This document shows, piece after piece, positions 7,103 through 60,747 of a stretch of 64,000 nucleotides of DNA. The notes under the pieces were generated by a model, which was given only the letters and a program-made list of their open reading frames with translations, was not told the DNA's origin and made no database searches. The position numbers and the translations under genes were made by a program. Positions within the stretch are counted from its first letter, which is position 1. Every line of letters begins with the position of its first letter. Source of the DNA: the human T2T-CHM13v2.0 reference genome, Homo sapiens; the NCBI RefSeq assembly GCF_009914755.1, contig NC_060927.1. One strand, written 5' to 3'.

Positions 7103-8203
7103 AGCAATAGGAGTCCCTTTTTTTGTTTTTTTGCATTTCAGAAAGTTTGTACTAATGTATATTTACTTCAGTAATCTACTTTGTCTGTAGCTTTATTCAT
7201 AGTTTTTCTTAATTTTAATACGTGTTTGTGAAAAACAGTTGCTTTTAATTTGCTTTTTTTTTTTTAATTTTACTTTAAGCTCGGGGATACATGTGCAGAA
7301 CATGCAGGTTTGATACATAGGTATACAGTGCCGTGGTGGTCTGCTGCACCTATTGACCCATCTGTCAAGTTCCCTCCCCTGGCCCCCCATCCCTCAACAG
7401 GCCCTACTGTGTATTGTTCCTCTCCCTGTGTCCATGTGTTCTCATTGTTCAACTCCTGCTTATGAATGAGAACATGGGGTGTGTGGTTTTCTGTTCCTCT
7501 GTTAGTTCGCTGAGGATGATGGCTTCCAGCTTCATCCATGTCCCTGCAAAGGACACGATTTCATTCCTTTTTATGGCTGCATAGGATTCCATGTGTATAT
7601 GTACCAGATTTTCTTTATCCAGTCTATCATTGATGGGCATTTGGATTGGTTCCATGATTTTGCTATTGTAAATAGTGTTGCAATAAACATGCGTGTGCAT
7701 GTGTCTTTATAGTAGAATGATTTATAATATATTTATATTCCTTTGTCTATATACTCAATGAGGGGATTGCTGGGTCAAATGGTATTTCTGGTTCTAGATT
7801 ATTGAGGAATTGCCTTACTGTCTTCCACAATGTTTGAATTAATTTACATTCCCACCAACAGCGTGAAAGCATTCCTATTTCTCCACAGCCTTGCCAGCAT
7901 CTATTTTTTCTTGACTTTTTAATAATTGCCATTCTGACTGGCATGAGAGAGTATCTCGTTGGGGTTTGATTTGCATTTCTTTTTTTTTTTTTAATTATTA
8001 TTATACTTTAAGTTTTTGGGTACATGTGCACAATGTGCAGGTTAGTTACATATGTATACATGTGCCATGCTGGTGTGCTGCACCCATTAACTCGTCATTT
8101 AGCATTAGGTATATCTCCTAATGCTATCCCTCTCCCCTCCCCCCACCCACAACAGTCCCCAGAGTGTGATGTTCCCCTTCCTGTGTCCATGTGTTCTCAT
8201 TGT

Positions 8204-12030
<3,827 letters not shown>

Positions 12031-12093
12031 TATGATGTTAGCTGGTGATTTTGCTCGTTAGTTGATGCATTTTCTTCCTAGTCTCGATGGTCT

Positions 12094-13108
12094 TTACATT
12101 TTGGCATGATTTTGCAGCGGCTGGTACTGGTTGTTCCTTTCCATGTTTAGTACTTCCTTCAGGAGCTCTTTTAGGGCAGGCCTGGTGGTGACAAAATCTC
12201 TCAGTATTTGCTTTTATGTAAAGTATTTTATTTCTCCTTCACTTATGAAGCTTAGTTTGGCTGGATATGAAATTCTGGGTTGAAAATTCTTTTCTTTGAG
12301 AATGTTGAATATTGGTCCCCACTCTTCTGGCTTGTAGAGTTTCTGCCAAGAGATCCGCTGTTAGTCTGATGGGCTTCCCTTTGTGGGTAACCCGACCTTT
12401 CTCTCTGGCTGCCCTTAACATTTTTTCCTTCATTTCAACTTTGGTGAATCTGACAATTATGTGTCTTGGAGTTGCTCTTCTCAAGGAGTATCTTTGTGGC
12501 CTTCTCTGTATTTCCTGAATTTGAATGTTTGCCTGCCTTGCTAGATTGGGGAAGTTCTCCTGGATAATATCCTGCAGAGTGTTTTCCAACTTGGTTCCAT
12601 TTTCTCTGTCACTTTCAGGTACACCAATCAGACACAGATTTGGTCTTTTCATATAGTCCCATATTTCTTGGAGGCTTTGTTCATTTCTTTTTATTCTTTT
12701 TTCTCTAAACTTCCCTTCTCGCTTCATTTCATTCATTTCATCTTCCATCACTGATACCCTTTCCTCCAGTTGATCGCATCGGCTCCTGAGGCTTCTGCAT
12801 TCTTCACGTAGTTCTTGAGCCTTGGCTTTCAGCTCCATCAGCTCCTTTAAGCACTTCTCTGTATTTGTTATTCTAGTTATACATTCGTCTTAATTTTTTT
12901 CAAAGTTTTCAACTTCTTTTCCTTTGGTTTGAATTTCCTCCTGTAGCTCGGTGTAGTTTGATCGTCTGAAGCCTTCTTCTGTCAAGTCGTCAAAGTCATT
13001 CTCCATCCAGCTTTGTTCCGTTGCTGGTGAGGAACTGCATTCCTTTGGAGGAGGAGAGGTGCTCTGCTTTTTAGAGTTTCCAGTTGTTCTGCTCTGTTTT
13101 TTCCCCAT
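12094..13108 (-). pseudogene. L1 ORF1p, disrupted
   Basis: Starts MGKKQSR at 13108; stop at 12890; frameshift near 12320. Confidence 0.93.
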
Positions 13109-13691
13109 CTTTGTGGTTTTATCTACTTTTGGTCTTTGATGATGGTGATGTACAGATGGGTTTTTGGTGTGGATGTCCTTTCTGTTTGTTAGTTTTCCTT
13201 CTAACAGACAGGACCCTCAGCTGCAGGTCTGTTGGAGTTTGCTAGAGGTCCACTCCAGACCCTGTTTGCCTGGGTATCAGCGGTGGTGTCTGCAGAACTG
13301 TGGATTTTCGTGAACCGGGAATGCTGCTGTCTGATGGTTCCTCTGGAAGTTTTGTCTCAGAGGAGTACCCCGCTGTGTGAGGTGTCAGTCTGCCCCTACT
13401 GGAGGGTGCCTCCCAGTTAGGCTGCTCAGGGGTCAAGCGTCAGGGACCCACTTGAGGAGACAGTCTGCCTGTCCTCAGATCTCCAGCTGAATGCTGGGAG
13501 AACCATTGCTCTCTTCAAAGCTGTCAGACAGGGACATTTAAGTCTGCAGAGGTTACTGCTGTCTTTTTGTTTGTCTGTGCCCTGCCCCCAGAGGTGGAGC
13601 CTACAGAGGCAGGCAGTCCTCCTTGAGCTGTGGTAGGCTCCACCCAGTTCGAGCTTCCCGGCTTCTTTGTTTACCTAAGCAAGCCTGGGCA

Positions 13692-13766
13692 ATGGCGGGC
13701 GCCCCTCCCCCAGCCTTGCTGCCGCCTTGCAGTTTGATCTCAGACTGCTGTGCTAGCAATCATTGA
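13692..13766 (+). pseudogene. L1 antisense ORF0, prematurely terminated (24 aa)
   Basis: ATG GCG GGC GCC CCT CCC CCA... translates to MAGAPPPALLPPCSLISDCCASNH*, matching the primate ORF0 N-terminus, with a TGA at 13764. Confidence 0.85.
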
Positions 13767-16700
13767 GACTCCGTGGGCGTAGGACCCTCTAAGCCAGGTG
13801 CGGGATATAATTTCCTGGTGCGCCATTTCCTAAGCCCATCGGAAAAGCGCAGTATTTGTGTGGGAGTGACCTGATTTTCCAGGTGCTGTCTGTCACCCCT
13901 TTCCTTGACTGGGAAAGGGAACTCCCTGACCCCTTGCGCTTCCTGAGTGAGGCAATGCCTCGCCCTGCTTTGGCTCGCGCACGATGCGCTGCCCCCACTG
14001 TCCTGCGCCCATTGTCTGGCACTCCCTAGTGAGATGAACCCGGTACCTCAGATGGAAATGCAGAAATCACCCATCTTCTGCATCCTTCACGCTAGAAGCT
14101 GTAGACCGGGGCTGTTCCTATTCGGCCATCTTGGCTCCTCCCCCTCCTGATGGTTTGCATTTCTCTAATGATTAGTGATGTTGAGCTTTTTTTCGTGTTT
14201 GTTGGCCACATAAATGTCATCTTTTGAGAAGTGCCTGTTCATATACTTTGCCGACTTTTTGACGTGGTTGTTTGCTGTTTTCTTATAAATTTGTTTAAGT
14301 TCTTTGTAGATTCTGGATATTAGACCTTTGTCACATGGGTACGCAATAAAAAATGATAAAGTGGATATCAAAGAATTGCAAAGACCTTTTCTGCATCTAT
14401 TGAGATAATCATGTGGTTTTTGCCTTTGGTTCTGTTTATATGTTGGCCTGAAGTTTTTTTCGTTGTTGTTGTGGTGGTGTCTCTTCCAGGTTTTGGTATC
14501 AGGATGATGCTGGCTTCATAAAATCAGTTAGGGAGGAGTCTCTCCTTTTCAGTTGTTTGGAATAGTTTCAGAAGGAATGGTACCAGCTCCTCTTTGTACC
14601 TCTGGTAGAATTCGGCTTTGAATCTGTCTGGTACTGGAATTTTTTTTGGTTGGTAGTAATTACTGTCTCAATTTCACAACTTGTTATTGGTCTATTCTGG
14701 GATTCAACTTCTTCCTGGCTTAGTCTTGGGAGGGTGTATATGTCCAGGAAATTATCCATTACTTCTGGATATTCTATCACAGTTCATTTGTGTCAAGGTG
14801 TTTATAATATTTTCTGATGGTAGTTTGTATTTCTGTGGGGTTAGTGGTGATATCCCCTTTATCATTTTTTATTGCGTCTATTTGATTTTTCTCTCTCTTC
14901 TTCTTTATTATTCTGGTGGTCTATCTATTTTGTTAATTTTTTCAGAAAACCAGCTCCTGGATTCATTGATTGTTTTGAAGGGTTTTTCACTTCTCTAGCT
15001 CCTTCAGTTCTGTTCTGATCTTAGTTATTTCTTGTCTTCAGCTAGCTTTCGGATTAATTTGCTCCTGCCTCTCTAGCTCTTTTAATTGTGATGTTAGGGT
15101 GTTGATTCGAGATCTTTCTAGCTTTCTGAAACGGGCATTTAGTGCTATAAATTTCCCTGTTAACACTGCTTTATCTGTGTCCCAGAGATTCTGAGATGTT
15201 GTCTCTTTGTTCTCATTGGTTTCAAAGAACTTCTTGATTTCTGCTTTAATTTCATTATTTACCCAGGATTCATTCAGGAGCAGGTTGTTCAATGTCCATG
15301 TAAGTGTGTGAGTGAGTTTCTTAATCCTGAGTTCCAATTTGATTGCACTGTGGTCTGAGACTGTTTGTTATGATTTCAGTTCTTTTGCCTTTGCTGAGGA
15401 GTGTTTTACTTCCAATTATATGGTTGATTTTAGAATAAATGCCATGTGGCACTGAGAAGAATGCATATTCTATTGATTTGAGATGGAGAGTTCTGTAGAT
15501 GTCTATTAAGTCCACTGGATCCAGAGCTGAGTTCAAGTCCTGAATGTCCTTGTTAATTTTCTGTCTCGTTGGTCTATCTAATATTGACAGTGGGGTGTTA
15601 AAATCTCCCACTATTCTTGTGTGGGCATCTAAGTATCTTTGTAGGTCTCTAAGAACTTGTTTTATGAATCTGGGTGCCCCTGCATTGGGTGCATATATAT
15701 TTAGAATAGTTAGCTCTTCTTGTTGAATCATTCCCTTTACCATTATGTAATGCCCTTCTTTGTCTTTTCTGATCTTTGTTCATTTAAAGTTTGTTTTCTC
15801 AGAGACTAGGATTGCAACTCCTGCTTTTTTTGGTTTTCCATTTGCTTGGTAAATTTTCTTCCATCCCTTTATTTTGAGCTTAGGTGTGTGTTTACACATG
15901 AGATGGGTCTCCCAAATACAGCCCACCGATGGCTCTTGACTATCCAATTAGCCAGTCTGTGTCTTTTAATTGGAGCATTTAGTCCATTTACATTTAAGGT
16001 TAGTATTGTTATATGTGAATTTGAACCTGTAATCATGATGCTATCTGATTATTTTGCACACTAGTTGCTACAGTTTCTTCATAGTGTCATTGGCCTTTAT
16101 ACTTTGGTGTGTTTTTTGCAGTGGCTGGTACCAGTTTTTCTTTTCCATATTTAGTGCTTCTTTCAGGAGCTCTTGCAAGGCAGGCCTGTTGGTAATGAAA
16201 TCCCTCAGCATTTGCTTGTCCGAAAAGGATTTTATTTCTCCTTCACTTATGAAGCTTAGTTTGGCTGGATATAAAATTCTGGGTTGAAAATTCTTTTCTT
16301 TAAGAATGTTGAATATTGGCCCCCAGTCTTTTCTGGCTTGTAGAGTTTCTGCTGAGAGGTCCACTGTTAGTCTGATGGGCTTCCCTTTGTTGGTGATCTG
16401 ACCTTTCTCTATGGTTGCCCTGAACATTTTTCTTTCCTTTTGACCTTGGAGAATCTGATGATATGTGTCTTGGAATTGATTTTCTTGTGGAGTATCTTAG
16501 TGGTGTTCTCCTTCTTTCCTGAATTTGCATGTTGGCCTGTCTTGCTAGGTTGGGGAACTTCTCCGGCATAATATCCTGAAGTGTGTTTTCCAGCTCCCTC
16601 TCTCTTTCAGGTACTCCAATCAGTCATAGGTTCAGTCTTTGTATAAAGTCCCATATTTCTTGGAGGCTTTGTTTGTTCCTTTTTATTATTATTATTATTT

Positions 16701-53038: not shown

Positions 53039-55671
53039 AGAATCTTCAAGTACCATGTACACTCATTCTTCGACCCTGGTACATGTTTGCGTGCTGTGTT
53101 CAGCTTTTTCCAGCCCTTATCCTTACTCTCATCCCCATAAACTCCCAAACTACTAAATTGCCTTCCTCTTCCCCATCAAATTCCTCCTTGCCCCAGTATT
53201 ATTTATTTCAGGGGAGCTATTCAAGTGACCTGCTAATATGTAACTGATGACCAGGGGTTATGGCATTGTGAAATAGGCTGTTTACGAATAAATTTAAGGT
53301 AAAATTTCAGACAGTATGAAAAAGTTAAATGAATTACTAACAGTAGTGGAGATACAATATCTGAGGCCAGGTAAGAGTTAAATGTCAATGTAATCAAATT
53401 ATAAAATTAGCCTAATTTGAGGTATTATCTGAATATTTACAACAATATCAGGAAGATGTATGGACTATTGGGGTCAATCCTTAAAAAGAGATAAATTAAG
53501 GATCAAGCACTATAATTAGGAAAGACTTTAAATTGGTTTCTTCTTCTTTTCAGCACTTACTAGATGGGAGATAAATTTTTGCTGTTATTGTTATTGTTCT
53601 GGCATTTATGCAGTTCTTTCTCACCGTTTTTAAGTACCATCTATCTTCATGTACAAAGTTAGCAGCAGCTGATGCATATTTGGTATGAAATATATACTTT
53701 TCATGGGCAATATACATTTGAAGAGAGTTTGATAAGCACAATTTTAAAAAAGATTTTTTTTAATGCCTACTGTATTCTCTTTACAATGTGTTTGAAATAC
53801 TGAAAATTTATTCATGTTATGATAGAAGGAAATGTAAGTTTAAAAATAGTTAATGGTTTTATTTATTTTCTCCTCTCTATTTACTGTATATTGTCAAAAT
53901 GGATGTGTGGTGGTGTAATAAATGTAACCAATTTCTTGAAGCTAATAACTAATCCTGAGTGAATCTGAGCCAATGCTATAGTCCATTAACTTTCGAACTA
54001 TGGTTATAATTTTCTTTAACAGACCCAGATACAGGCTATATTTTATCATTATCATAAACCTGGAGAGGAAACTGAAAGTAGAGAGAGATAGAGGTTTACA
54101 TAGTTCACACAAAGGCTCTTGTTAAAGGCAAAAAGTCATAGATTAAAAATCTAAACCTGCTTTATGGTTCTCTATCCTCCTTGACTATGAAATATACAGG
54201 ATTCTTAAGCACGAGGTTCTTATGGAAATAAGTCAGGAAAGAACTAGGACTCAACAACAGTACAAGCAACAGAAAATAAATGGTCTTTAAAGCCTTAGTA
54301 AATGCACATGTCGCTGCCACTAACTAGATTATATGAAAAAGAACAGAAGGTACCCCTACTCAACCAAAATATTTTGATTTAATACCAAAGCACAAAAAGG
54401 CACATCTCAAGTGTTAGCAATACCTTAAGCTTTACTATTTAAAAAGAATTATTTGGATTGTAGCCACATTTAAAAGAGAAAACCAATATAAATCAAATGC
54501 CCTTTCTTTTCTGGTGCACAGCTTATAGAAATATGTTTATTTTTGCATCCCTGTATTTGCATACATACCACTCTTCTTGTTTCTTTGATAAAAGTTTTAT
54601 GGGCAATAAATTATAAATCATGCTTATATATAATTTATCCCTTTAAATACATATTTTATTTTTTGGCTTTTTAAATGAAAACTGTCTTTAGCTTTGTATT
54701 TTTAAGAGATTCAAATTCAATACTTTAAGAAATTCATGAATAAAGCATGTTTCAACCTTAATTTACATTTTTATAGTGTCTGCTGAAGAACAGTATAGAT
54801 TTTGCTTTCTGAGTGTACTCTTTCAAGCAGACACGATTCCCTTAAGAATAAGCCTTCAGAAAATTCACTTGCCCTTCATAAAACATACATTTCATTATCT
54901 CCCTATAAATTGGACACTTCCCTAACATGGTTGTGCATTTGTGTCTACTCCCTGAATATTGTAATATCCCCTAGTTCACATACACACACTAATACAAACA
55001 GAAAATGGCCATTTTATTGTGTTGAATTCAATGGCAAGTGACCTGACATGAATCCAAAATGCATTTTACCTCCAAGAAGATAATCTTGATATTATTCAAT
55101 CCTTTAAGTAAGAAAATGATGTGGGAGATTAGTTTTCCTTAACTCTAATCACATTTTAGACTTGGTTTAATGTTATTAGATTGCTTAAAGTAGCTATTAT
55201 TTTAGAATATATTTAGAATACTGAACCAAATAACTTGTTGATAAACTACCTAGGAATAGACTTCTCATACTCATAAAATCTCACGATTTTATTTAATTTT
55301 TTGGAAAATAAAGCTAAGGAACATAGTTCATCTAGATTGGCTCATTGAGACTCAGATACTGGCAAAGCATAGATAACATCCTCTTTTCTCTTAGTCCATT
55401 TCCCATAGGCCTATTTCTTAGCAATCATTGCTTTATGAGGCTTTTGTTTTGTAATTAGGTTGCATTTCCCTCGAGGCTAGAGCTTTGAATAAGAGGAAAA
55501 AAAAAAAGATATTACCTGGGAGGAAAATCCTATTGTACATGGACTAAGGTTAGCAACCTCAACATTCATCCTCTTTCATGCATTCTTCCTCTTTATTACT
55601 GTAAGAATGCTCTATAGTGACAATGATTTTTTTAATAATATCTCACCTTCTGACTGAAATACCTTTGTTTC

Positions 55672-57958
<2,287 letters not shown>

Positions 57959-58085
57959 TGCTTTGGCTCTAGTACTTATTAGATGCCCCACAAATATTTA
58001 TTTAACAAATAAACAACTGAATGGCAGCATGTCATCTGCTCCCTTGCCTGCTCTTTCATCTGGACTTGTACTCTGTTATAAGTGG

Positions 58086-58522
58086 TGTGTAACTTTGTTA
58101 GGGCTGCTGCAAAACAACAACACAGATTTATTCTATTACAGTTCTGGAGGCCAGGGGTCTAACATAAGGCTTTGGCAGGGCAATGCTCCCTCTCAAGGCT
58201 CTAGAGGAGAATGCCTCTTTGCTTCTTTTAGCTTCTGGTGGCTCCTTGCATTCCTTGTTTTATGGCAACATAACTTTAATCTCTGCCTCTGTCTTCATGC
58301 CTTTTTTCCTTGTATCTTTGTGTCTCAATTCTCCTTCTTCTTTTCTCTTATAAAGTTACCTGTTGTTGGACTTAGGGCCCACCCTAAATCTAGGGTGACC
58401 TCATTTTTAAATCCTTAATTTAATTATATCTGCAAAGACCTCTTTCCAAGTAGGATCACATTCATAGGATCTAGGGATTAAGGCTTGAACATATTTTCAG
58501 AATCACTGTGTAACCTACTACA
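58086..58522 (-). mobile_element. MLT1C-like LTR
   Basis: agggctgctgcaaaacaac...ttctggaggccag...tagggcccaccctaaatc...aacctactaca. Confidence 0.85.
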
Positions 58523-60747
58523 GAGTGAGGCTGATTAATTTGATAGATTTGTGGGACTACTGGTATAAACTAAGCTGCTTCGGGGTGAAGATGAAAAGTG
58601 TTGTGTGGAGTGAGAATTTTTTTTTCTACTGTTACATGGAATCCAGTAGTCATCTGGGGGCTGGTGGCATTGCTGACATAAGGAGGTAATTGCCTTTGGT
58701 ATGGACGTTGGTGTTCTTTCAGTGGCAGAAGCTGAAAACTCCTGATGTTCCTTTCAGCTGCTTCACAGGGAGAGGACACGGGTGAACAAAAGTTTGAGTA
58801 GCGAAAGACACCCGAGGAGACTGTAGCTGAGAGAGGTTTCTGTGGAGTTTCTGAAATGACAGGGTGACAGCTTGAATGAGGATATTGGTGAACTCAGATC
58901 CACTAGGGATGGGGAATAAATTTAAGGGTGAACCTAGTTTCATCCACAGCCTGGTAAGAACAGGTGACATTTAGGTTACAGCTATAATTCACATAAAAAT
59001 GAGTATTTTATGATTATATGAAATAAAATACAAGGAATTTTCAATTAATCACATTAATGTGAGCAGGACAATTTGAATAGTTGAAGTTCACAGAATCTTC
59101 CACTTAATTTTAGCCTTAAATTCACCATTTTTTCCTCATTAACATTACTATAAAACAAAATCGAGTGATTTGGGTCTCTCTCTTTGATTGAAATCTCCTT
59201 CTGGTGAGGCTAATTAGAAATAGCAATATTAAAAAGCATAATCAGTCTTATATTTAAGTAGAATAACTCCTTTGACTTGACTAACAGCCCACTATGATGT
59301 CCTAAATTACCCAGGGTTAAAATAGAAAATATCACTGGAAAGTAACGTATTTTCTATTTTCAGCCATTTGTACTTTTTTTCTGATACTTTTCAATACGAA
59401 ATTACAGGAGCAATAGTCTTCTGTGCAAAAGAGTTAAGTTAGTATGGTAGATGGGGTTAAAACCCCACAAAGAACAAGGGCAGTGAAATCAGAATTCCCG
59501 TGTTGAGCACTAAATAGTCACAGAAGTTTGAGTAAATCACTTAATCTTTCTGATAAATTCAAAGAGCTCTCCCAGCTCTACTACTCTGTGATTCTAAAGA
59601 GGAAAGATATATTAAGATCTGTCTGACTTTTGCAACAGTCTCTTTGGAGGGCAGATTTTTTATGTAGGGGTTCTGTATACCAAATGAGGGGTTCTGTATA
59701 CCAAAGGATCAACTGAAAGGTTTTGGCAAGGCTCCTGGAATCTATAAGAGATGATTTCACAAGGAGTCTCACACAGAACCAAAGTTAAATTAGCCCACTT
59801 TGCCTGAAGCCAGAGAGTGACGCAGAAAGAGAGAATAAAAGGAGTAGAAGTTATTAGATCTCATACATAGAAGAAAATAAGTCTATGCAGTAATTCCTTT
59901 CCCAAAAATTTACTAGTTAAATATTGGAAACTAGTATTATGCTTGTGAAGGCTCTACCATTTCTCAGTCCTCTTATTATCTCTTGAAAGCTATGTCCAGA
60001 TTTGGAATGTGTGTATGCTATGTGAAGAGTTGGCACTTGGTTCTCCTTCCTCCTTTTGTCTCTCTCTCTCTCTTCTGCCCTCCCTTTCCTCCTTTATTCT
60101 TTGTTTCCTTTTCTACATTAAGCCTATTGAATAAGAAACAAGGACTTTCCTCAATCTTGAAGGTGATTTACTGAGGGCTCCTTTGCACATCAGAAGTGAG
60201 CATTTCTTATCACTCATTTATAGCATGTACTTTAAATTTACATTAATAACTTGGAATCTATACTAATTGAAAAAAAGAAAGCAAATATTGGTAACAATTT
60301 ATTTAAGATAAATATTTAAAAACTGGAAAGTCTTTCTTTTGTGACCAGACTAAGCTAAGTAGTAAAATAAGAAAGGTTCTTACCAATATTTAATATCAAA
60401 ACCAGTTCTCTGCTTTAAAACATAATTTTAGATAAGCTATATTCTCTTGTATTTTTTGGCTAAACCAGAGATACCTGGTCCATTTTGCTAAGTCATTACA
60501 CAATCACTACATTATGAAATATGAAGACATTTTTAAAATAGATATTAAAATTAAAAGAAGAAGTTTTGAAGGTAATAAACAGAAAGAAAAGTGGAAAAGA
60601 TCAACTTTACAAACATACACAGCATGGCAACAATAATACTTGCATATTCCAAGCAGCAGTTGGATACATGTAATTCATATTTTTTGGAAGAAATAAATTT
60701 GAAATGTTCAATAATATTTTACCATAATAACCAGACTAAAAGACTGT

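What the first reader, a model, noticed from the sequence alone, without database searches (positions are those of the whole stretch)
54058..54844. The copied pieces tile their donor almost exactly once: shatter-and-shuffle rather than random template switching
Seen: sorted by donor position the eight pieces are 54058-54098, 54093-54120, 54115-54277, 54284-54331, then a 121-bp gap, then 54453-54479, 54483-54637, 54648-54761, 54783-54844. Neighbours overlap by 6 and 6 bp or are separated by 6, 3, 10 and 21 bp. The other ingredients are split the same way: the minus-strand L1 with a 6-bp overlap, the plus-strand L1 with a 1-bp gap and the orphan with an 8-bp overlap. Independent template switches should give random overlaps and re-copying. 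Inference: an extra copy of this ~790-bp segment was fragmented at staggered breaks and re-ligated out of order with L1 DNA, a sub-kilobase chromothripsis-like event, while the donor stayed intact. It formally resembles pointer-joined scrambled segments.
Basis: partly seen in the sequence, partly recalled or inferred. Interest (0 to 1): 0.85.

Follow-up and report, generated by a model that had tools for sequence, protein, structure and literature searches.

The report
Tiled local fragments in an L1 repair patch
A 2-kb patch in this human chromosome 3 sequence is stitched from young LINE-1 copies and eight shuffled pieces of a nearby 0.8-kb stretch that tile that stretch almost exactly once, which looks like a germline example of a break-repair signature described so far mainly in cancer and cell-culture genomes.

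Summary
Eight pieces (27-163 bp, about 99.8% identical) at 57151-57958 copy donor 54058-54844. Sorted by donor position they abut with -6, -6, +6, +121, +3, +10 and +21 bp. Random or local-jump copying gives this in at most 2 in 10,000 simulations.

The pieces behave as discrete fragments, not as independent template switches. But this is not a free shuffle.
- The L1 and orphan ingredients stay collinear.
- 7 of 11 scorable junctions carry 3-6 bp of microhomology.
- The "6-bp overlaps" of donor and minus-strand L1 are one shared hexamer, GGTTTA.
- The two L1 parts point as cDNAs primed from the two flanks.
- The L1 is very young and lacks a 3' end, poly(A), target-site duplication and endonuclease site.
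- An ancient repeat is cut exactly at the left junction, so about 210 bp or more of target DNA was lost.
- The orphan is unique in the whole assembly.

Best reading: one endonuclease-independent L1 repair of a resected break that captured tiled single-stranded fragments of the flank. This tiling signature was published by Zhang et al. (Nat Genet 2026), building on the TST jumps of Umbreit et al. (2020). It is a new germline member of a known kind. The ancestral allele could not be examined.

The parts
54058..54844 (+). Donor (origin tile), intact, 68.9% A+T, 1,050 bp left of the left junction
55645..55895 (+). Ancient interspersed repeat, copy A, profile positions 52-292 of 504, cut exactly at the L1 junction (target DNA lost)
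   Evidence: nhmmer E=1.1e-50
55895..57156 (-). L1a: young L1 ORF2 fragment; the top strand is the cDNA strand, running from the L1 3' side at the flank towards the L1 5' side
   Evidence: (416/420 aa identical to solved human ORF2p, residues 84-503)
57151..57178 (+). p2 = donor 54093-54120 (GGTTTA shared with L1a)
57175..57222 (+). p4 = donor 54284-54331 (TCTT shared with p2)
57222..57262 (+). p1 = donor 54058-54098 (ends in GGTTTA, shared with L1b)
57257..57321 (-). L1b: continues L1a from the same hexamer (6-bp overlap); 65/65 identical to 8 of 9 close L1 copies
57322..57336 (.). Orphan-a, ends in AATGCTCA
57336..57498 (-). p3 = donor 54277-54115, inverted, 1 mismatch (57349); fills the hole between p2 and p4
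57499..57561 (.). Orphan-b, begins with AATGCTCA; unique in the whole assembly
57562..57575 (+). L1d: 14 nt of plus-strand L1, adjacent (1-nt gap) in L1 coordinates to L1c
57573..57693 (+). p7 = donor 54648-54761(68)
57684..57838 (-). p6 = donor 54637-54483, inverted; 10-nt imperfect, chimeric overlap with p7
57835..57861 (+). p5 = donor 54453-54479
57859..57898 (+). L1c: 40 nt of plus-strand L1 from a second L1 source (2/40 differences from L1a and from all 9 close copies)
57897..57958 (+). p8 = donor 54783-54844, abuts the right flank
58085..58526 (-). Context: second, inverted copy (B) of the same ancient repeat, profile positions 497-75

Best explanation
A single repair event in the human lineage, roughly 0.1 to 6 million years ago on a rough estimate. 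A double-strand break inside an ancient repeat lost about 210 bp or more of target DNA. It was patched without L1 endonuclease signatures. Reverse transcription of L1 RNA was primed from free DNA 3' ends on both sides, giving minus-strand L1 next to the left flank and plus-strand L1 towards the right flank. The patch also took up short single-stranded fragments that together represent one strand of the resected left flank, 1.05 to 1.84 kb from the break. These would be either displaced products of discontinuous gap-filling synthesis on the 3' overhang, or pieces of the resected strand. Because the fragments come from one pass over one template, they tile it once. Because the complementary strand survived and was refilled, the donor is intact. 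The pieces, the L1 cDNAs and a remnant of the deleted target (the orphan) were joined by annealing of 3' ends at 1-6 nt microhomologies, followed by run-off fill-in and nick sealing. This places fragments in either strand and so in either orientation. What is shown: the anatomy, the tiling statistics, the microhomology, the L1's youth and non-classical features, the target loss and the orphan's uniqueness. What is inferred: a single event, resection, single-stranded fragments, an RNA template for the L1, and the order of steps.
For: Tiling. Donor piece ends coincide as convergent stops (54115-20, 54479-83) and divergent starts (54277-84, 54637-48), as expected for discrete fragments. The donor exists only at the origin and in the mosaic genome-wide. 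The tile lies 1,050 bp from the left junction. In print, 113 of 126 short insertions lay less than 10 kb from DNA ends and tiled with little gap or overlap (PMC12807874 section 13). In the rows of Supplementary Table 13 that I read, within-tile neighbour distances run mostly from -20 to +65 bp, with occasional larger gaps of 213 and 547. That matches the -6..+21 and +121 seen here. Microhomology: 7 of 11 scorable junctions have 3 nt or more (null 6.6% per junction), total 33 against 8.3 +/- 3.9, P about 0.002. The chimeric 10-nt p7/p6 junction fits an incorporated heteroduplex. L1: a 420-aa open frame, 416/420 identical to solved human ORF2p; 3 mismatches in 1,262 nt to the closest genomic copies; all 40 of 40 scored hits at 99-100% identity, out of 2,819 candidates. 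There is no poly(A), no TSD (longest shared flank word 5 nt) and no TTTT/A at the outer junctions. The element is about 2.56 kb short of an L1 3' end. Both L1 parts face the flanks with their 3' side. The ancient repeat is cut at 55895 and its remainder is absent downstream. The orphan is unique at up to 3 mismatches. There is a precedent for an extra segment derived from the deleted target at an endonuclease-independent L1 locus: NCLI48 (PMC1920257 section 11).
Against: No pre-insertion allele was available, so the single-event history, the deletion size and the orphan's origin are inferences. The tile starts 1,050 bp from the break rather than abutting a recessed end, and nothing explains why 54845-55894 contributed no pieces. 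The median piece is 55 bp against 184 bp in the published set. The strand polarity of the fragments cannot be read from the sequence. Six pieces direct and two inverted also fits random orientation of double-stranded fragments. The out-and-back use of one hexamer and the collinear 'returns' to L1 and orphan are equally natural for a polymerase that switches templates. The p3>orphan-b join has 0 nt of microhomology, which looks like blunt joining. The L1 parts could have been copied from genomic L1 DNA rather than RNA.
Confidence: 0.55

Rival explanations
1. Replicative or polymerase template switching on an intact donor (MMBIR/FoSTeS, or ORF2p/Pol theta hopping between L1 RNA, the donor duplex and the local target). 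Several 3' ends are engaged at once, so that each extension stops where it meets the next primer.
For: Microhomology is present at most joins. The same GGTTTA is used to leave and re-enter L1. L1, orphan and plus-strand L1 are each resumed within -6, -8 and +1 nt of where they were left, and they stay collinear. The donor is gained, not lost. ORF2p is reported to extend DNA ends on DNA templates, and L1 insertions with genomic DNA templated from near the integration site were seen in 3 cases (PMC11702581, sections 7 and 12).
Against: Independent switches, whether random or local, reproduce the tiling in at most 2.2e-4 of simulations. Convergent stops and divergent starts at the same donor coordinates need an added blocking assumption. 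One join has no microhomology. The published analysis argues that tiling plus strand alternation is incompatible with MMBIR.
Confidence: 0.25
2. One reading: a double-stranded extra copy (sister chromatid or homologue) of about 790 bp was shattered at staggered breaks and re-ligated with L1 DNA by end joining.
For: The tiling itself. The 8-bp orphan repeat is flanked by joins with 0-1 nt of microhomology and looks like a filled-in staggered break. The 6:2 orientation split fits random orientation.
Against: It needs a separate double-stranded copy whose own locus was then lost. It requires the L1 and the donor to break independently at the same hexamer, which occurs once in the donor. The microhomology excess has P about 0.002. 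The non-donor pieces are never shuffled, P about 0.001. The L1 polarity fits priming from the flanks rather than random ligation.
Confidence: 0.12
3. Stepwise history: an L1 fragment and a simple duplicate of the donor arrived first, and later small inversions, deletions and transpositions scrambled them.
For: None found here. It remains possible only because no pre-insertion allele or other haplotype could be examined.
Against: At least six further rearrangements would be needed within 0.8 kb. They would have had to occur while the copy accumulated only 1-2 differences in 626 bp. Every breakpoint is reciprocal to another within 21 bp or less.
Confidence: 0.03
4. Assembly artefact in T2T-CHM13.
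For: None found.
Against: The mosaic is 2 kb, much shorter than the long reads used for such assemblies (recalled). It has specific microhomology junctions and a matching truncation of a flanking repeat.
Confidence: 0.01

Closest known systems
Tiled short insertions of the breakage-replication/fusion model (Zhang, Mendez-Dorantes, Burns, Pellman, Nat Genet 2026, PMC12807874; preprint 10.1101/2024.08.17.608415 seen in a search listing only)
   Same: Short pieces that line up at their origin with little gap or overlap, lie within 10 kb of a DNA end, are chained at a junction, show microhomology between neighbours and have mixed strand orientation. The origin stays present. The neighbour distances in their Supplementary Table 13 (the part I read) match those here.
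   Different: Their tiles feed many junctions of a chromothriptic chromosome carrying megabase duplications, in cell clones and cancers. Here all eight pieces of one tile went into one 2-kb patch 1 kb away, mixed with L1 cDNA, on an otherwise normal germline chromosome. The pieces are smaller (median 55 against 184 bp). The tile does not abut a breakpoint.
Tandem Short Template (TST) jumps (Umbreit et al., Science 2020, PMC7347108; passages read)
   Same: Chains of tandem short templated insertions drawn from 1-10 kb hotspots near break ends.
   Different: Described after chromosome-bridge breakage, with a median insertion of 183 bp. The authors first attributed them to template switching. No L1 component is involved.
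Endonuclease-independent / non-classical L1 insertion, NCLI (Sen et al., NAR 2007, PMC1920257; abstract, section 11 and passages read)
   Same: A 3'-truncated L1 without poly(A), TSD or an endonuclease site, with a target deletion and 'extra nucleotides' joined to the L1. One of their loci carries an extra segment derived from the deleted target.
   Different: Their extra segments are single stretches of 4-312 bp. None is described as a tiled, shuffled set of local pieces interrupting the L1. Only 2 of their 21 loci show internal L1 rearrangement. This locus is not in their list: 'chr3' occurs once in the main text, in the row for NCLI1 at 196.4 Mb, although the Table 1 passage I saw was cut after about nine loci.
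Non-canonical L1 insertions in L1-induced cell clones (Mendez-Dorantes et al., bioRxiv 2024, PMC11702581; sections 7 and 12 read)
   Same: [quoted passage not shown]
   Different: Those events mostly keep TPRT hallmarks (poly(A), endonuclease site, TSD). Their Figures S9 and S10 were not visible to me, so I cannot say whether any of them tiles.
Classical chromothripsis and MMBIR/chromoanasynthesis
   Same: Many clustered breakpoints from one event. Reciprocal breakpoint pairs resemble chromothripsis. Copy gain with microhomology resembles MMBIR.
   Different: The scale is three to five orders of magnitude smaller. The shuffled segment is gained rather than lost. The order is not random. The origins do not overlap.

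Membership tests
Tiled short-insertion chains (TST jumps / breakage-replication/fusion insertions) | Two or more short (1 kb or less) insertions in tandem at one junction | tested here: met
   8 donor pieces of 27-163 bp, plus 2 plus-strand L1 pieces and 2 orphan pieces, lie in 57151-57958
Tiled short-insertion chains (TST jumps / breakage-replication/fusion insertions) | Origins line up with little gap or overlap (tiling) | tested here: met
   Neighbour distances are -6, -6, +6, +121, +3, +10, +21. P is at most 4e-5 under random placement and at most 2.2e-4 under local jumps
Tiled short-insertion chains (TST jumps / breakage-replication/fusion insertions) | Origin within about 10 kb of a DNA end or breakpoint | tested here: met
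   The donor's right edge is 1,050 bp from the left junction, but it does not abut it
Tiled short-insertion chains (TST jumps / breakage-replication/fusion insertions) | Microhomology above 2 bp or untemplated bases between neighbours | tested here: met
   7 of 11 scorable junctions have 3 nt or more
Tiled short-insertion chains (TST jumps / breakage-replication/fusion insertions) | Strand alternation of pieces at the destination, given a known strand of origin | tested here: inconclusive
   2 of 4 adjacent donor-donor pairs flip orientation. The strand of origin cannot be inferred here
Tiled short-insertion chains (TST jumps / breakage-replication/fusion insertions) | Setting of adjacent parallel breakpoints or large duplications from replicated broken ends | tested here: not met
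   No other copy of the flanks or the donor exists in the assembly. Only a local 2-kb patch is present
Endonuclease-independent (non-classical) L1 insertion | 3' truncation of more than 25 bp | tested here: met
   The L1 part nearest the flank ends about 2.56 kb from the 3' end of the full-length L1 in the window
Endonuclease-independent (non-classical) L1 insertion | No poly(A) tail | tested here: met
   Only two 7-nt homopolymers occur in the 2,064-bp insert, both inside the L1 parts
Endonuclease-independent (non-classical) L1 insertion | No target-site duplication | tested here: met
   The longest word shared by the 40-bp flanks is 5 nt and is not at the junctions. The flank repeat is truncated instead
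Endonuclease-independent (non-classical) L1 insertion | Insertion site departs from TTTT/A | tested here: met
   Neither TTTTA/TAAAA nor TTTAA/TTAAA occurs within 15 nt of either outer junction
Endonuclease-independent (non-classical) L1 insertion | Verified pre-insertion allele in another genome | not testable with these tools
   Only this assembly is held ('It has no relatives here')
Chromothripsis (shatter and random re-ligation) | Random order and orientation of all fragments | tested here: not met
   The non-donor pairs are collinear with only donor pieces between, P about 0.001. The left/right order of donor halves is kept, P about 0.03
Chromothripsis (shatter and random re-ligation) | Fragments cut from their origin, so copy number falls or stays level rather than rising | tested here: not met
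   The donor is intact and the pieces are an extra copy
MMBIR / chromoanasynthesis | Templated segments from independent strand invasions, so origins show arbitrary gaps and overlaps | tested here: not met
Ciliate-type pointer-joined scrambled segments | Each pair of consecutive segments shares a pointer repeat | tested here: not met
   Only 3 of 10 adjacencies overlap (two donor adjacencies, one of which shares its GGTTTA with the minus-strand L1 split, and the orphan), and the rest are gaps of 1-121 bp

The most novel reading that the evidence does not exclude
This locus is a base-resolved germline fossil in which L1 reverse transcriptase and displaced gap-filling (Okazaki-like) fragments of a resected break end worked on the same lesion. 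Because cDNA can only grow from a 3' end, the L1 segments act as built-in polarity marks. The plus-strand L1 parts must have been primed by bottom-strand 3' ends at donor 54783 and 54648. That is the polarity predicted for fragments complementary to the left end's 3' overhang. The 1-nt gap and the 6-nt overlap on the two L1 templates would then show the same 'extend until you meet the next primer' rule on RNA as on the DNA flank. If this holds, tiled-fragment capture is a normal germline repair outcome, not one confined to micronuclei or bridges. L1-tagged cases could then be mined from pangenomes to test the strand-of-origin claim of the 2026 model.
Probability: 0.3. Interest if true: 0.65.

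Novelty: new member of a known kind. Interest (0 to 1): 0.45.

Why it matters
The tiling of short insertions at their origin is the main argument in a current debate over whether complex insertion junctions come from template switching or from physical fragments made at resected ends. So far it rests on cancer genomes, engineered clones and a few congenital cases.

A clean example that was inherited, resolved to the base, on an otherwise normal chromosome would show that the process acts in the human germline at sub-kilobase scale. It would also show that the process can combine with endonuclease-independent L1 repair. The embedded cDNA segments add directional information.

The locus itself lies in an intron of a long non-coding RNA gene (the hub's annotation). 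No functional effect is indicated.

Tried and rejected
(1) An old resident L1 as a passive recipient is rejected. L1a is 416/420 aa identical to solved active-type ORF2p and within 3 of 1,262 nt of other genomic copies. No other L1 part lies nearby.

(2) Twin priming on one L1 RNA is rejected. The plus-strand part (L1-reference 10548-10602) lies inside the span of the minus-strand part (10519-11838) and differs at 2 of 40 nt.

(3) A purely RNA-templated donor, copied from sense pre-RNA of the host lncRNA gene, is not supported. Neither a left-primed nor a right-primed continuous cDNA accounts for all orientations, since p2, p4 and p1 or p6 always misfit. This is reasoning.

(4) The orphan as a copy from elsewhere: no second copy exists in the assembly. 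The orphan as the missing part of the ancient repeat: no profile hit at E of 10 or less.

(5) The missing 121 bp of the donor was not found inserted elsewhere.

(6) The remainder of repeat copy A was not found just downstream of the patch. There is only an independent inverted copy B.

(7) L1 endonuclease as the shattering nuclease was considered. The donor is 69% A+T, so TTTA-like sites sit near every breakpoint by default. I ran no formal enrichment test.

(8) Integration of a small DNA circle (p1-p2-p4) at GGTTTA fits the left cluster only and not p7/-p6/p5, so I dropped it.

(10) The Supplementary Note of PMC12807874, with its two fragment models and the L1-clone tiles, is a PDF that I could not read. 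Figures S9 and S10 of PMC11702581 were also not visible.
Full report
**1. What is there**

A BLAST of 53900-55000 against the window finds eight non-self matches, all inside 57151-57958. A search of the whole assembly (the window is chr3:82,150,001-82,214,000 of a 3.1-Gb, 24-contig genome) returns only the donor and the same eight pieces. Extension by exact matching, self-BLAST, short-word searches and direct reading give the map below.

| Window coordinates | Piece | Source |
|---|---|---|
| to 55894 | left flank | resident |
| 55895-57156 | L1a, minus strand | L1 |
| 57151-57178 | p2 (+) | donor 54093-54120 |
| 57175-57222 | p4 (+) | donor 54284-54331 |
| 57222-57262 | p1 (+) | donor 54058-54098 |
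| 57257-57321 | L1b, minus strand | continues L1a with a 6-bp overlap |
| 57322-57336 | orphan-a | no source found |
| 57336-57498 | p3 (-) | donor 54277-54115 |
| 57499-57561 | orphan-b | no source found |
| 57562-57575 | L1d, plus strand | L1 |
| 57573-57686(93) | p7 (+) | donor 54648-54761(68) |
| 57684(92)-57838 | p6 (-) | donor 54637-54483 |
| 57835-57861 | p5 (+) | donor 54453-54479 |
| 57859-57898 | L1c, plus strand | one base away from L1d in L1 coordinates |
| 57897-57958 | p8 (+) | donor 54783-54844 |
| 57959 onward | right flank | resident |

The orphan halves share AATGCTCA on either side of p3. The copy differs from the donor at one internal base (57349) and at one position within a 10-nt imperfect overlap of p7 and p6.

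**2. Is the tiling more than chance?**

Yes. The eight lengths sum to 638 bp and cover 626 of 787 donor bases, with 12 bases covered twice.
- With random placement (200,000 trials per range), at least six of seven neighbour distances fell within -6..+21 bp with P=4e-5 in 787 bp and 5e-6 in 1 kb. It never happened in 1.5-5 kb.
- I also ran a null closer to real template switching. Each piece starts near the end of the previous one (sigma 20-800 bp), with random direction and 300,000 trials each. The joint pattern appeared in at most 2.2e-4 of trials.

The piece ends behave as ends of physical units. Two pairs of pieces stop at the same donor point from opposite sides (54115-20 and 54479-83). 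Two pairs start at the same point in opposite directions (54277-84 and 54637-48).

**3. It is not a free shuffle**

- The three split non-donor ingredients (L1a/L1b, orphan-a/b, L1d/L1c) each keep order and orientation and have only donor pieces between their halves. Random re-ligation of the 14 pieces does this in about 0.1% of 400,000 shuffles.
- Pieces from the left half of the donor sit left of those from the right half (P about 0.03).
- Of 11 junctions whose two parents are known, 7 have 3-6 nt of microhomology. The values are 6, 4, 1, 6, 1, 0, 3, 3, 4, 3 and 2, a total of 33 against 8.3 +/- 3.9 expected (P about 0.002). Several also show 8-of-10 homeology.
- The "6-bp overlap" between p1 and p2 and the "6-bp overlap" within the minus-strand L1 are one and the same hexamer, GGTTTA. 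It occurs once on the donor's top strand and forms both the L1a>p2 and the p1>L1b junctions. This is a homology-guided reciprocal join, not two independent staggered cuts.
- Four of the six bases shared by p2 and p3 are the TCTT microhomology of the p2>p4 join.
- Only the orphan's 8-bp repeat is a clean overlap, because its two joins to p3 have 1 and 0 nt of microhomology.

**4. The L1 parts**

- L1a translates without a stop over 420 codons. It is 416/420 identical to residues 84-503 of solved human ORF2p. Read in series with L1b, the frame stays open over 440 codons.
- In the assembly, 2,819 candidates were found and the 40 that were scored are 99-100% identical. The nine closest copies that I fetched differ at 3-6 of 1,262 nt, and L1a has three differences from all nine. 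L1b is 65/65 identical to eight of the nine. This is a very young L1, not an old resident.
- It is an internal ORF2 fragment that ends about 2.56 kb short of an L1 3' end.
- The 2,064-bp insert has no poly(A), only two 7-nt homopolymers that lie inside the L1 parts. The flanks share no word longer than 5 nt. Neither outer junction lies near a TTTT/A-like site.
- The plus-strand L1 (L1d+L1c, 54 nt) differs from L1a and from all nine close copies at 2 of 40 nt, so it has a second source.
- Both L1 parts turn their L1-3' side to the nearer flank and their 5' side to the centre. That is the polarity expected if DNA 3' ends on both sides primed reverse transcription. This last step is an inference.

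**5. The target site**

The last 250 bp of the left flank belong to an ancient interspersed repeat. I fetched 20 paralogous copies and found that their mutual similarity runs 200-260 bp beyond the point where they stop matching the window. I then built a 504-position profile.
- The left-flank copy matches profile positions 52-292 and ends at 55895, exactly the L1 junction (E=1.1e-50; alignment).
- Positions 293-504 are not found after the patch.
- The only other hit is an independent inverted copy at 58526-58085, covering positions 75-497 (E=2.5e-44).

So about 210 bp or more of target DNA is missing. The size is a minimum and assumes that the copy was once complete.

The orphan has no second copy in the assembly. 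A 91-nt query matched only itself, and a 39-mer at up to 3 mismatches matched only itself. The profile does not match it either. The simplest reading is that the orphan is a remnant of the deleted target. Sen et al. describe such a case, NCLI48 (PMC1920257 section 11).

**6. Comparison with what is known**

The four criteria of Sen et al. for non-classical, endonuclease-independent L1 insertions are 3' truncation, no TSD, no poly(A) and no endonuclease site (passages). All four are met as far as they can be tested without the empty allele. Of their loci, 18 of 21 had target deletions and 15 of 21 carried extra non-L1 nucleotides. This locus is not among the rows I saw: 'chr3' occurs once in the main text, in the row for NCLI1 at 196.4 Mb, though the Table 1 passage shown to me was cut after about nine loci.

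The tiling itself is in print. Zhang, Mendez-Dorantes, Burns and Pellman (Nat Genet 2026, PMC12807874; sections 13 and 16 read in full) report the following.
- They found 126 short insertions with a median of 184 bp.
- Of these, 113 lay less than 10 kb from DNA ends.
- They were chained at junctions with more than 2 bp of microhomology or with untemplated bases.
- Their strand orientation alternated, with 38 neighbour pairs on the same strand and 41 on opposite strands.

The authors argue that this is incompatible with MMBIR. [quoted passage not shown] These would be made by discontinuous gap-filling synthesis, displaced by a helicase, and then joined by microhomology annealing, fill-in and ligation.

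In the part of their Supplementary Table 13 that I read, within-tile neighbour distances are mostly between -20 and +65 bp, with occasional gaps of 213 or 547 bp. That is the same texture as -6, -6, +6, +121, +3, +10 and +21 here. The same chains were first described as TST jumps (Umbreit et al. 2020; passages). Mendez-Dorantes et al. (preprint) saw L1 insertions built from two RNAs, opposite-orientation RT products joined from the two ends, EN-independent RT at pre-existing ends, and three insertions with genomic DNA templated from near the site.

My three literature searches found 'tiling pattern' together with 'short insertions' only in the Zhang paper and its preprint. I found no description of this locus and none of a tiled set embedded in a germline L1 patch. 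That is only as strong as those three searches of an open-access library.

**7. Mechanism proposed (inferred)**

A break inside repeat copy A lost its right-hand neighbourhood. The left end was resected past 54058, leaving the top strand as a 3' overhang. Bottom-strand fragments over 54058-54844 became free. They were either displaced fill-in products or pieces of the resected strand.
- Overlaps of a few nucleotides fit strand displacement into the next fragment.
- Gaps of 3-21 nt fit lost primers or nibbling.
- The missing 121 nt is a lost fragment.

The top-strand 3' end at 55894 primed cDNA on an L1 RNA (1 nt of overlap). At GGTTTA the growing strand annealed to the 3' end of fragment p2, ran off its 5' end, annealed to p4 (TCTT) and then to p1. 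It ran off p1 at the same GGTTTA and re-annealed to the L1 RNA, giving L1b.

On the other side, the bottom-strand 3' ends of p8 and p7 primed cDNA on a second L1 RNA with 2 and 3 nt of microhomology. The p8-primed cDNA stopped one base short of the p7 primer. p6 and p5 paired 3' end to 3' end (TTGG), which places them in opposite orientation. p3 was set between two overlapping pieces of the lost target. Final fill-in restored the donor.

Every junction can be written as an annealing of two 3' ends or as a run-off (my reading). The sequence cannot show the order of steps, the strand of origin, or that RNA rather than L1 DNA was the template.

**8. Rivals**

A template-switching polymerase explains the microhomology, the returns to the same template and the gain in copy number. 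It needs an added rule to produce tiling, namely that extensions block one another on a shared template. I give it 0.25. Double-stranded shattering of a sister copy explains the tiling and the orphan's 8-bp repeat. It does not explain the shared hexamer, the microhomology excess, the collinear backbone or the L1 polarity. I give it 0.12. A stepwise history (0.03) and an assembly artefact (0.01) are unlikely.

**9. Age**

This is a rough inference. There are one or two differences in 626 bp between donor and copy and three private differences in about 1.3 kb of L1. With a recalled rate of about 0.5e-9 per bp per year per lineage, the central values are about 1.6-3 million years from the donor/copy comparison and several million years from the L1 differences, which include variants inherited from the source copy. 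The Poisson range runs from about 0.1 to 6 million years or more. Whether the allele is fixed, polymorphic or private to this genome could not be tested.

**10. Verdict**

The chromothripsis-like picture of double-stranded shatter and shuffle is replaced by a better-fitting and already published process, combined here with endonuclease-independent L1 repair. This is a new germline member of a known kind, of moderate interest.

Noticed in passing
55645-55895 (+) and 58085-58526 (-): Two copies of the same ancient interspersed repeat family flank the patch in inverted orientation, with their distal ends facing each other. They are 74% identical over 174 aligned columns. Divergent inverted repeats in long single-stranded DNA are cited as a source of rearrangement (reference list of PMC12807874, seen). 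Whether this pair provoked the break is untested.
   Followed up: partly
55895 and 57898 (L1-reference positions 10519 and 10548 in the L1 at 7960-13984): The two L1 cDNA-like parts come from different L1 sources (2/40 differences). Yet they start only 29 nt apart in L1 coordinates, which is roughly a 1% coincidence for random starts on a 6-kb element. I have no explanation for this.
   Followed up: no
57684-57693: The p7/p6 junction is a 10-nt imperfect overlap. The mosaic carries the p6 base at 57687 and the p7 base at 57691, so it is chimeric. This fits an incorporated heteroduplex with patchy correction, or a polymerase error next to the junction.
   Followed up: partly
57349: The only internal donor/copy difference (T in the donor-derived reading, G in the mosaic) lies 13 nt from the orphan-a/p3 junction. 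With the junction oddity above, both differences sit close to junctions, but the chance of that is about 0.1 by my rough estimate, so it is not significant.
   Followed up: no
7960-13984 (-) and 14535-15845: A full-length minus-strand L1 (poly-T at its left end, longest open frame 828 aa, 6 stops in the stretch homologous to L1a) is 96% identical to L1a. Next to it, a further L1 fragment is 84% identical. Neither is the source of the L1 in the patch.
   Followed up: partly
54332-54452: The 121 bp of the donor that is absent from the mosaic is similar in size to the larger pieces (114-163 bp). It is not found anywhere else in the assembly, so it looks like one lost fragment.
   Followed up: yes
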